A stretch of 10,083 bases of DNA from IMG/VR virus record IMGVR_UViG_2534682078_000009; one strand, given 5' to 3'. Position numbers: made by a program. The DNA is from a virus. Lineage: Duplodnaviria; Heunggongvirae; Uroviricota; Caudoviricetes. This document shows, piece by piece, positions 9,001-10,083 of this stretch. Every line of letters starts with the position of its first letter. The stretch's first letter is position 1.

Positions 9001-10083
9001 ACCACTGCCAATTTCATGGTGATTTTCAGGGTAACGGATAAGGTCTGAGGATTCGCCTCCACGTCGCAACCAACTTTCTTCAAACTGCTTTCTTGATTCG
9101 TCCATCGATACTTACCCTCAGTTCAACTCACAAAACTCCACGCCATTTTTGCTACAGCGACAGGCATAACACCGATAATCACCCACAGGAAAATGCTACC
9201 GAAAAGCACACCCACCAGGTCTTTACCTTCGCCTACCAACCGGACAAAACTGCTGGCAACAACAATGAACGTCGCCACCATCCACATAGCACCGAGAATC
9301 CTCAATGCAGAGAAAATTAACTCAGCCACGATTTACCCTCCCCCAAATAAAAAGGCCTGCGATTACCAGCAGGCCTGTTATTAGCTCAGTGATGTAGATG
9401 GTCATTGCCTTACCTCCATAAGCGCCCTATTAATAAACGCCGTCATTGGATTTGCACATCCCCACCCCGTACCATCTGGATTTCTTTTAATTGGCTCCTT
9501 CTTCACTTTGCGTTTTGCATAAATAACCGTCTTCCACTTACGCTCAACAACACTCAAATGTCCTTGTTTCACCATATGCCTTGCTGCTTGAGCGATTCTG
9601 TTATTTGGTATTCCGGTGATCAGTGCTAATTCATGTGGGGAGAATTGTTCATGAGTTTTCAGATATTCCAGGATGATTTCTTTTCCAGTCACGATCTGCT
9701 CCTGTAACTATCCCATGTAAACGCAAGTGAACCGCCCCGGGTTTCCTGGAGAGTGTTTTATCTGTGAACTCAGGCTGCCAGATCATCGTTTCCGATGGAA
9801 GCATAATAAGCTTTTTCTGCTTCTGCCGGAGGAGTATGGCCCAGCCTTCCCAGCAATCGTCGATTGTTATACCAGTCCACCCACGTTAGTGTGGCCAGTT
9901 CCACTTCTGCACGGTTTTCCAGCTCTTACGGTGTATTACCTCCGCTTTGTAAAGACCATTGATGCTCTCAGCCATCGCGTTGTCATACGAGTCGCCTGTA
10001 CTCCCTGTTGATGCCAGTAATCCGGCTTCTTTTAGTCGCTCCGTATAGGCCAGTGACACATACTGAGAGCCTTTATCGCTGTG

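What the first reader, a model, noticed from the sequence alone, without database searches (positions are those of the whole stretch)
9692..10083. IS629-like insertion truncates the replication gene next to ren, and its own transposase is frameshifted
The IS terminus (TGAACCGCCCCGGG...) lies 36 bp upstream of ren, inside a reading frame that ends LAFTWDSYRSRS-stop with the TGA overlapping the ren start, as at the lambda P-ren junction. The replication gene therefore loses its 5' portion to the IS. Within the IS, the DDE-region frame and the conserved C-terminal frame are offset by one base at an A4 run (about 9914-9918). Combined with the holin frame changes this indicates either an immobilised, decaying prophage or systematic indel errors.
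Basis: partly seen in the sequence, partly recalled or inferred. Interest (0 to 1): 0.5.

Follow-up and report, generated by a model that had tools for sequence, protein, structure and literature searches.

The report
IS629 end beside prophage ren gene
The right end of this sequence is an ordinary IS629 insertion sequence cutting off a phage helicase-loader gene next to a ren-like gene, and its "frameshifted transposase" is probably a one-base error at the ragged end of a draft contig.

Summary
An IS629/IS1203 right end (IRR) starts at 9728. It abuts the last 12 codons (LAFTWDSYRSRS-stop) of a replication gene whose TGA overlaps the GTG start of a ren-like gene. The IS orfB reading frame breaks at an A4 run (T4 at 9915-9918 on the + strand); reference copies have A5.

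New findings:
- The cut gene is a DnaC/IstB-type helicase loader of 281-297 aa, not lambda P.
- The window is the entire 10,083-bp contig AFDS01000012.1 of the draft genome of E. coli 2534-86. It stops inside the IS, so the loss of the gene's 5' part cannot be shown here.
- Positions 431-9740 are 100% identical to finished O111 genomes. All five private indels lie within 430 nt of a contig end, inside repeat-family sequence. A4 occurs in 1 of 5,813 finished E. coli records that match this stretch. The frameshift is therefore more likely a consensus error than decay.
- About three dozen finished genomes, those listed being O111 and related bovine strains, break at the same nucleotide but carry the IS in the opposite orientation (IRL). 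There the IS bounds an invertible prophage remnant and has been excised in some strains.

The orientation difference is unexplained. Overall this is ordinary and already known.

The parts
9402..9692 (-). ren-like gene, 96 aa, GTG start overlapping the stop of the upstream remnant (GTGA)
   Evidence: ORF list and translation. 43% identity to lambda Ren over the N-terminal 58 aa at lambda 40280-40453. PHROG 142 'Ren-like exclusion protein' 3.5e-13; best PHROG 1687 'MarR family' 6.2e-40. Pfam gives only sub-threshold MarR_2. Same protein as WP_000145948.1 in O111.
9689..9727 (-). 3' remnant (12 codons plus stop, LAFTWDSYRSRS*) of a DnaC/IstB-like helicase loader gene
   Evidence: Translation. Identical to the C-terminus of intact 281- and 297-aa loaders directly upstream of the same ren-like gene in L002, L008-L012, L014 and L015. 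The intact protein hits IstB_IS21, Bac_DnaA and PHROG 50 'DnaC-like helicase loader'.
9728..10083 (-). right-hand 356 nt of an IS629/IS1203 element (IS nt 954-1310), transposase co-directional with ren; it runs off the contig end
   Evidence: Alignment to the annotated IS629 of VT2-Sakai and to IS1203 of O111 11128. rve, rve_2 and rve_3 hits on the frame-corrected translation.
9728..9752 (.). 25-bp right terminal inverted repeat (IRR) of the IS
   Evidence: Corresponds to the 'inverted repeat from right end of IS629' annotated in AP000422. Differs from IRL at 3 positions (GTT versus AAA), which fixes the orientation.
9886..10083 (-). orfB fragment in the catalytic (DDE) frame, ending in a premature TAA after the frame slip
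   Evidence: HSDKGSQY...DNAMAESINGLYKAEVIHRKSWKTVQKWNWPH*, compared with reference OrfB.
9915..9918 (.). T4 run (A4 on the coding strand) where reference IS629/IS1203 copies have five
   Evidence: Single gap against IS629 Sakai and both O111 copies. Only 1 of 5,813 matching records in the finished E. coli genomes has the A4 form.
9770..9913 (-). conserved C-terminal 47 codons of orfB in the shifted frame, with the native stop
   Evidence: RAEVELATLTWVDWYNNRRLLGRLGHTPPAEAEKAYYASIGNDDLAA*, identical to the reference C-terminus.

Best explanation
The window is one complete short contig of the draft genome of E. coli 2534-86, and it covers the late-early region (ren, nin genes, lpxR, Q, esterase, holin) of a lambdoid prophage. 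At its right end an IS629/IS1203 copy sits inside the phage's DnaC-like helicase loader gene, 36 nt before that gene's stop. Only the last 12 codons remain joined to the ren-like gene. The contig stops 356 nt into the IS because the IS is a multicopy repeat that the assembler could not cross. Shown: the IS identity, its orientation in this contig, the breakpoint and the identity of the cut gene. Inferred: IS629 entered by ordinary copy-out-paste-in transposition and separated ren and the nin genes from the replication module. In the finished O111 relatives, IS-IS recombination and IS excision then reshaped the prophage into a non-replicating remnant. The apparent orfB frameshift (A4 instead of A5) is most likely a consensus error in the thinly covered, repeat-derived contig end, not a real inactivating mutation. 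If it were real, it would remove the last 48 residues of the transposase, downstream of the catalytic D, D and E residues.
For: Whole-contig origin: exact protein look-up returns AFDS01000012.1, length 10083, range 1-10083; the strain name comes from EC253486_5504. IS identity. Cut gene. Functional phages N7 and Dewey have the loader directly upstream of this ren-like gene. Error reading: window 431-9740 has zero differences from O111 11128. The private indels are at 43, 395, about 424-430 (two) and 9915-9918, all within 430 nt of a contig end and all in repeat-family sequence. Three of the five shorten a homopolymer. A4 is present in 1 of 5,813 matching records among the 5,426 finished E. coli genomes. 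Other draft assemblies (accession series AIGF, AIGG, AOEA) carry 1-3 gaps in 340-810 nt of IS629 at their contig ends. Prophage decay in relatives: the O111 locus lacks the early and replication genes, is bounded by inverted IS copies, is inverted between 11128 and RM9131, and has lost the IS in E2855 and the IS plus tail-side DNA in 8E. IS629 sits mostly in prophages in O157 (62%, PMC3271280).
Against: No reads were available, so the A4 call cannot be checked directly. A4 also occurs in two other IS629 copies at unrelated loci (pO157 of SS17; AEZU02000068.1), so the run may also be a real slippage site. Two of the five private indels are not homopolymer changes. I do not know the sequencing platform or the assembler used. 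The IS orientation differs from every finished relative, which this explanation leaves open.
Confidence: 0.65

Rival explanations
1. The A4 run is a real one-base deletion. This IS629 copy then encodes a transposase that lacks its last 48 residues, and it is crippled in cis as part of genuine decay of the prophage region, together with real frameshifts in the holin and ydfR genes.
For: The sequence as deposited shows it. The same A4 allele appears in two other IS629 copies at other loci, one of them in a finished plasmid annotated 'frameshifted', so slippage at this run does happen or is repeatedly called. The IS copy next to ren in O111 is itself frameshifted, though elsewhere, by a C deletion at IS nt 164.
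Against: Five private indels against about one private substitution is not what mutation gives, nor is it that all lie within 430 nt of the contig ends with none in 9.3 kb of core. A4 is absent from all but one of 5,813 matching records in finished genomes. IS629 pieces at the contig ends of other draft assemblies show similar gaps.
Confidence: 0.25
2. The ren-IRR junction is an assembly chimera. The strain really has the O111 arrangement (IRL next to ren), or no IS at all, and the last 356 nt were attached wrongly.
For: The junction was not found in 5,426 finished E. coli genomes nor in the viral, metagenome or species-representative collections. Both contig ends depart from the O111 structure exactly where repeat sequence begins, and both carry indels. 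The predicted reciprocal junction and the predicted truncated loader proteins were not found anywhere.
Against: IRL and IRR share only 13 + 9 nt, too little for an overlap or k-mer assembler to join through. The breakpoint is at exactly the IS terminus and at the same nucleotide as in O111, which a random chimera would not hit.
Confidence: 0.12
3. The orientation is real. It reflects either a second, independent IS629 insertion at the same 3-bp target, or an in-place flip of the ancestral IS (recombination between its own terminal repeats, or a transposase- or IEE-linked event). It is not shared descent of an unchanged junction.
For: The flank is identical to the nucleotide, with IRR here and IRL in the O111-type genomes. 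The 9.3 kb of 100% identity argues for recent common origin. Homologous recombination between IS copies, which visibly inverts the O111 segment, keeps the same IS end on ren and so cannot explain the difference (inference). IS excision has happened at this site (E2855), and IEE is reported to promote IS629 excision (PMC9943667 abstract).
Against: No finished genome has the reciprocal junction of a simple insertion at this site in either orientation, so it is not a recurrent hot spot. I know of no documented in-place flipping of IS629, and a literature search found none. The far end of the IS is outside the contig.
Confidence: 0.5

Closest known systems
IS629 (IS3 family) as annotated in phage VT2-Sakai (AP000422, 1310 bp), and its isoform IS1203 in E. 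coli O111:H- 11128
   Same: The 356 nt in the window match nt 954-1310 with 1 mismatch and 1 gap (Sakai) or the gap only (O111 IS1203). They share the 25-bp IRR, the same orfB C-terminal half with the second D and the E of the DDE motif, and the same stop.
   Different: One A is missing from the A5 run at IS nt 1115-1119. Only the right-hand quarter of the element is present because the contig ends, so orfA, the programmed frameshift site (AL1L pseudoknot, IS nt about 335-451 in O111 annotations), IRL and the target duplication cannot be seen.
The IS-bounded lambdoid prophage remnant next to ybhC and int in E. coli O111 (NC_013364 851953-864100 and about three dozen related finished genomes)
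   Same: Window 431-9740 is 100% identical. It has the same ren-like gene, the same 36-nt loader remnant and an IS629-type element starting at the very same nucleotide.
   Different: In O111 the IS faces the other way (IRL next to ren). It is a hybrid with 13 differences in its first 300 nt, has no target duplication (AAG versus ATG) and is followed by a truncated portal gene or, after inversion, by a lysozyme fragment and int. O111 has an IS-split lysozyme gene after the holin, where the window has ydfR.
Lambda P-ren junction
   Same: The replication helicase-loader gene is followed by ren with a 4-nt stop/start overlap (lambda ren starts at 40280; the overlap with P is from my knowledge of the lambda map). 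Ren-like N-terminal homology is 43% over 58 aa.
   Different: The loader is a DnaC/IstB-type AAA+ ATPase, not a lambda P homologue. The ren-like protein matches a MarR-type winged-helix PHROG better than the Ren PHROG.
Intact replication modules of temperate phages N7 (MH717096) and Dewey (PQ850600), and of prophages in L008-L015
   Same: The same ren-like protein (97-99% identity) sits directly downstream of a DnaC-like loader ending ...GGGCTLAFTWDSYRSRS.
   Different: There the loader is complete and preceded by a Phage_rep_O initiator gene. In the window everything upstream of the last 12 codons is replaced by the IS.

Membership tests
IS629 / IS1203 (IS3 family) | Near-identity at nucleotide level to the reference element | tested here: met
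   355/357 to IS629 of VT2-Sakai and 356/357 to IS1203 of O111 11128 over IS nt 954-1310.
IS629 / IS1203 (IS3 family) | 25-bp terminal inverted repeats starting TGAACCGCCCCGG | tested here: inconclusive
   IRR is present at 9728-9752 and matches the annotated right repeat. IRL lies outside the contig.
IS629 / IS1203 (IS3 family) | DDE (rve) transposase domain in orfB | tested here: met
   The visible part holds HSD... and ...AESINGLYK, and the frame-corrected fragment hits rve, rve_2 and rve_3. The first D is outside the contig.
IS629 / IS1203 (IS3 family) | orfA-orfB with programmed -1 frameshift; intact orfB frame | tested here: not met
   The orfA/orfB overlap is outside the contig. Within the visible part orfB is broken at the A4 run, far from the programmed site. 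This bears on whether the copy is intact, not on its family; the break may be a sequence error.
IS629 / IS1203 (IS3 family) | 3-bp target site duplication | not testable with these tools
   The other end is not in the contig. For comparison, the O111 copy in the lysozyme gene has GTC/GTC, and the O111 copy next to ren has none.
Lambda Ren-like proteins | Sequence homology to lambda Ren, and position directly after the helicase loader gene | tested here: met
   tblastn 43% over 58 aa to lambda 40280-40453; PHROG 142 3.5e-13; GTGA overlap with the loader stop. The match covers only the N-terminal two thirds.
Lambda Ren-like proteins | Protection against Rex exclusion | not testable with these tools
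The best profile match is a MarR-type regulator PHROG.
DnaC/IstB-like phage helicase loader | AAA+ ATPase core with Walker motifs | tested here: not met
   Intact relatives have it (IstB_IS21 1.7e-18, GKPGTGKN, DEVG). The window keeps only the last 12 codons, so no functional loader is encoded in the window.
Lambda P replication protein | Homology of the gene upstream of ren to lambda P | tested here: not met
   The intact homologue matches IstB_IS21, Bac_DnaA and PHROG 50 'DnaC-like helicase loader'; no lambda P family appears among the matches listed.

The most novel reading that the evidence does not exclude
The same IS629 insertion, inherited with the prophage, has been turned round in place in one lineage. 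The junction nucleotide is identical, with IRR next to ren in strain 2534-86 and IRL in the O111 clade. This would be an in-situ flip of an IS3-family element, for example by exchange within its 13-nt identical termini or by a transposase- or IEE-linked excision and rejoining. Homologous recombination between IS copies cannot produce it.
Probability: 0.2. Interest if true: 0.4.

Novelty: already known. Interest (0 to 1): 0.15.

Why it matters
It matters little for biology. IS629 insertions in lambdoid prophages of pathogenic E. coli, and the rearrangements, inversions and excisions they cause, are well documented. The practical lesson is about data quality. The window is a short draft contig whose two ends lie in repeats and carry private indels, so pseudogene calls there (transposase, holin, ydfR) should not be read as decay. 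The only point that might repay a small experiment is the opposite IS orientation at an identical breakpoint in two lineages with otherwise identical flanks.

Tried and rejected
1. I searched for the exact ren-IRR junction elsewhere. It was absent from the viral, species-representative and metagenome collections, and no finished E. coli genome covers it.
2. I searched for the reciprocal junction of a simple insertion (IS end + AAG + loader 5' part). There were none in the metagenome or species-representative collections. In finished E. coli genomes all 63 genomes matching that query have the uninterrupted gene.
3. Exact look-up of the predicted truncated loader (...GGGCTL*) for six alleles found nothing in the protein collection. 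This is weak evidence, because the allele in 2534-86 is unknown.
4. Exact look-up of a 51-aa ORF spanning the junction found nothing on record.
5. Lambda P as the cut gene: rejected.
6. The programmed -1 frameshift as the cause of the frame offset: rejected. The programmed site lies about 700 nt upstream in the element.
7. Homologous recombination or inversion between IS copies as the cause of the orientation difference: rejected by logic. Such exchanges keep the same IS end attached to the ren flank, as the 11128/RM9131 pair shows.
8. Literature searches for the accession prefix and for IS629 opposite-orientation events gave nothing useful. Papers name a porcine ETEC strain 2534-86, but I could not confirm that it is the sequenced strain.

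Full report
**What is there.** Read on the minus strand, the window's right end runs as follows.
- An IS629-type orfB segment enters from the window edge.
- The IS terminus follows (...GGGGCGGTTCA; on the plus strand TGAACCGCCCCGGG starts at 9728).
- Then come 36 nt of coding sequence plus a stop, reading LAFTWDSYRSRS*.
- Then a 96-aa ORF whose GTG overlaps that stop as GTGA.

The 356 nt at 9728-10083 align to nt 954-1310 of the annotated 1310-bp IS629 of phage VT2-Sakai with one mismatch and one gap. They align to both IS1203 copies of E. coli O111:H- 11128 with the gap only. The first 25 nt are the annotated right inverted repeat. Three positions (GTT versus AAA) distinguish it from the left repeat, so the orientation is unambiguous.

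**The frame offset.** Reference OrfB reads ...AESINGLYKAEVIHRKSWKNRAEVELATL...NDDLAA*. In the window the first frame reads ...RKSWKTVQKWNWPH*, and the conserved tail RAEVELATL...LAA* is in another frame. The sole cause is four A instead of five on the coding strand (T4 at 9915-9918).
- This is not the programmed -1 site of IS3-family elements. That site lies about 700 nt upstream, at the pseudoknot annotated in the O111 copies.
- Taken literally, the product would keep the visible catalytic residues (the HSD aspartate and the glutamate of AES-x6-K). It would lose the last 48 residues, which cuts the rve_3 region.

**The neighbouring genes.** The 96-aa protein is a Ren-like winged-helix protein.
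- It shares 43% identity with lambda Ren over 58 N-terminal residues at lambda 40280-40453.
- It matches PHROG 142 'Ren-like exclusion protein' at 3.5e-13, but matches a MarR-type PHROG better (6.2e-40).
- It has no Pfam family above threshold.

The 12-codon remnant is identical to the C-terminus of 281- and 297-aa proteins. In many prophages these lie directly upstream of this very ren-like gene and downstream of a Phage_rep_O initiator gene. In phages N7 and Dewey the loader likewise lies directly upstream of the ren-like gene. These proteins are DnaC/IstB-type AAA+ helicase loaders (IstB_IS21 1.7e-18, Bac_DnaA 2.5e-8, PHROG 50 6.7e-86), not lambda P homologues. The break lies between CTT and GCG, 11-12 codons before the stop. 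By inference, an IS in the window's orientation would present TGA immediately after ...GGGCTL. A retained 5' part would then lose only 11 residues.

**Where the window comes from.** An exact look-up of the frameshifted ydfR product returned NCBI contig AFDS01000012.1 of assembly GCA_000225065.2, with contig length 10083 and range 1-10083. The protein is named EC253486_5504 of Escherichia coli 2534-86. The window is therefore a whole draft contig.
- Its right end stops inside a multicopy IS.
- Its left end stops in the holin/ydfR lysis cassette, which occurs up to 15 times per genome.
The claim that the gene has lost its 5' portion is not demonstrable for this strain.

**Error or decay.** Window 431-9740 is identical, base for base, to O111 11128. 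Against the best references the private differences are these:
- minus A in an A4 run at 43;
- plus A at 395;
- minus G in a GG and minus A at about 424-430;
- minus A in the A5 run of the IS;
- one substitution at 322.

All lie within 430 nt of a contig end, all are in repeat-family sequence, and five of the six are indels. A 71-nt query centred on the run matched 5,813 records in 3,595 of the 5,426 finished E. coli genomes, and only one record (pO157 of SS17) carried A4.

IS629 pieces at the contig ends of other draft assemblies (AIGF01, AIGG01, AOEA01) show one to three gaps in 340-810 nt. Real decay would scatter mostly substitutions across the contig. I therefore judge the frameshift, and the holin and ydfR frameshifts, to be consensus errors in thinly covered contig ends, with about 0.7 confidence.

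Against this view:
- A4 also occurs in two unrelated IS629 copies, so the run may truly slip.
- I had no reads.
- I do not know the sequencing platform.

**What the relatives show.** About 36 finished genomes break at the same nucleotide or within 2-3 nt of it: 99 genomes match this loader-ren stretch and 63 of them have it intact. Those listed are O111 and related bovine strains. There the IS is the other way round, with IRL next to the remnant.
- That IS is a hybrid, with 13 differences in its first 300 nt including a frameshifting C deletion.
- It has no target duplication (AAG versus ATG).
- It is followed by a truncated portal gene.
- A second, inverted IS1203, a simple insertion with a GTC duplication in the lysozyme gene, bounds the other side.
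- The 9.6-kb segment between the two is inverted in RM9131 relative to 11128 (L007).
- In E2855 the IS has been excised almost precisely (CGCA|TGATC). In 8E the IS and the tail-side DNA are deleted.

IS629 is known to sit mainly in prophages (62% in O157; PMC3271280). Its excision is known to be promoted by IEE (PMC9943667 abstract).

**The unexplained point.** The window has IRR where the O111-type genomes have IRL, at the identical phosphodiester bond and with 9.3 kb of identical flank.
- Recombination between IS copies keeps the same IS end on the flank, as the 11128/RM9131 pair illustrates, so it cannot explain this.
- The ren-IRR junction is absent from all finished genomes and from three other collections.
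- The reciprocal junction of a simple insertion is also absent everywhere I could look. This argues against a recurrent hot spot.

The remaining readings are an independent insertion, an in-place flip, or a chimeric contig end. A chimera is unlikely, because IRL and IRR share only 13 + 9 nt. One PCR or a long-read assembly would decide between them.

**Verdict.** This is a routine IS629 insertion in a lambdoid prophage replication module, seen at the end of a draft contig, and the transposase 'frameshift' is probably technical. The finding is already known in kind and of low interest. The orientation discordance is a minor curiosity.

Noticed in passing
window 1-10083: The window is the entire contig AFDS01000012.1 (reversed) of the draft assembly GCA_000225065.2 of E. 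coli 2534-86. Both ends lie in multicopy sequence: the lysis cassette on the left and IS629 on the right.
   Followed up: yes
window 1-700: The holin and ydfR genes are frameshifted by private single-base indels (minus A at 43, plus A at 395, minus G and minus A at about 424-430) relative to intact copies in O121 and O111. No finished genome matches this stretch better than 98.6%. These are probably contig-end errors, or a consensus mixed from several prophage copies.
   Followed up: partly
window 319-430 versus L005 4310-4583: Left of the holin the window carries ydfR. O111 11128 carries a lysozyme gene split by an IS1203 with a GTC target duplication, so the lysis cassette is mosaic between otherwise identical prophage segments.
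   Followed up: partly
window 5447-6406 (+): An lpxR (lipid A 3'-O-deacylase) gene lies on the opposite strand between ninH and Q. In the O111 annotation it sits beside a 72-nt fragment of a second antiterminator gene. This looks like a moron inserted into the nin-Q region.
   Followed up: no
L005 3001-15189 versus L007: In O111 the 9.6-kb ren-to-holin segment is flanked by inverted IS629/IS1203 copies and is found in both orientations (11128 versus RM9131).
   Followed up: partly
L033 3051-3090; L034 3051-3090: Strain E2855 has lost the ren-adjacent IS by near-precise excision (CGCA|TGATC joins ren to the portal fragment). Strain 8E has lost the IS plus DNA up to a tail-tip gene. Both fit IEE-type IS629 excision and deletion.
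   Followed up: partly
L005 13881-15189: The O111 IS next to ren is a hybrid. Nt 93-293 carry 13 differences from canonical IS629/IS1203, including a one-base deletion that frameshifts orfA. The rest is canonical, and the flanks show no target duplication.
   Followed up: partly
L002, L003, L016: Other E. coli prophages with this replication module carry IS629-type insertions at other positions in ren, in the loader gene and just downstream. The module is repeatedly hit, though not at the same nucleotide.
   Followed up: no
L023 3979; L035 3001-3071: The same A4 variant of the orfB A5 run occurs in an IS629 copy inside traG (AEZU02000068.1) and in a copy between an integrase gene and repE on pO157 of strain SS17. 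These are two further independent occurrences or miscalls.
   Followed up: partly
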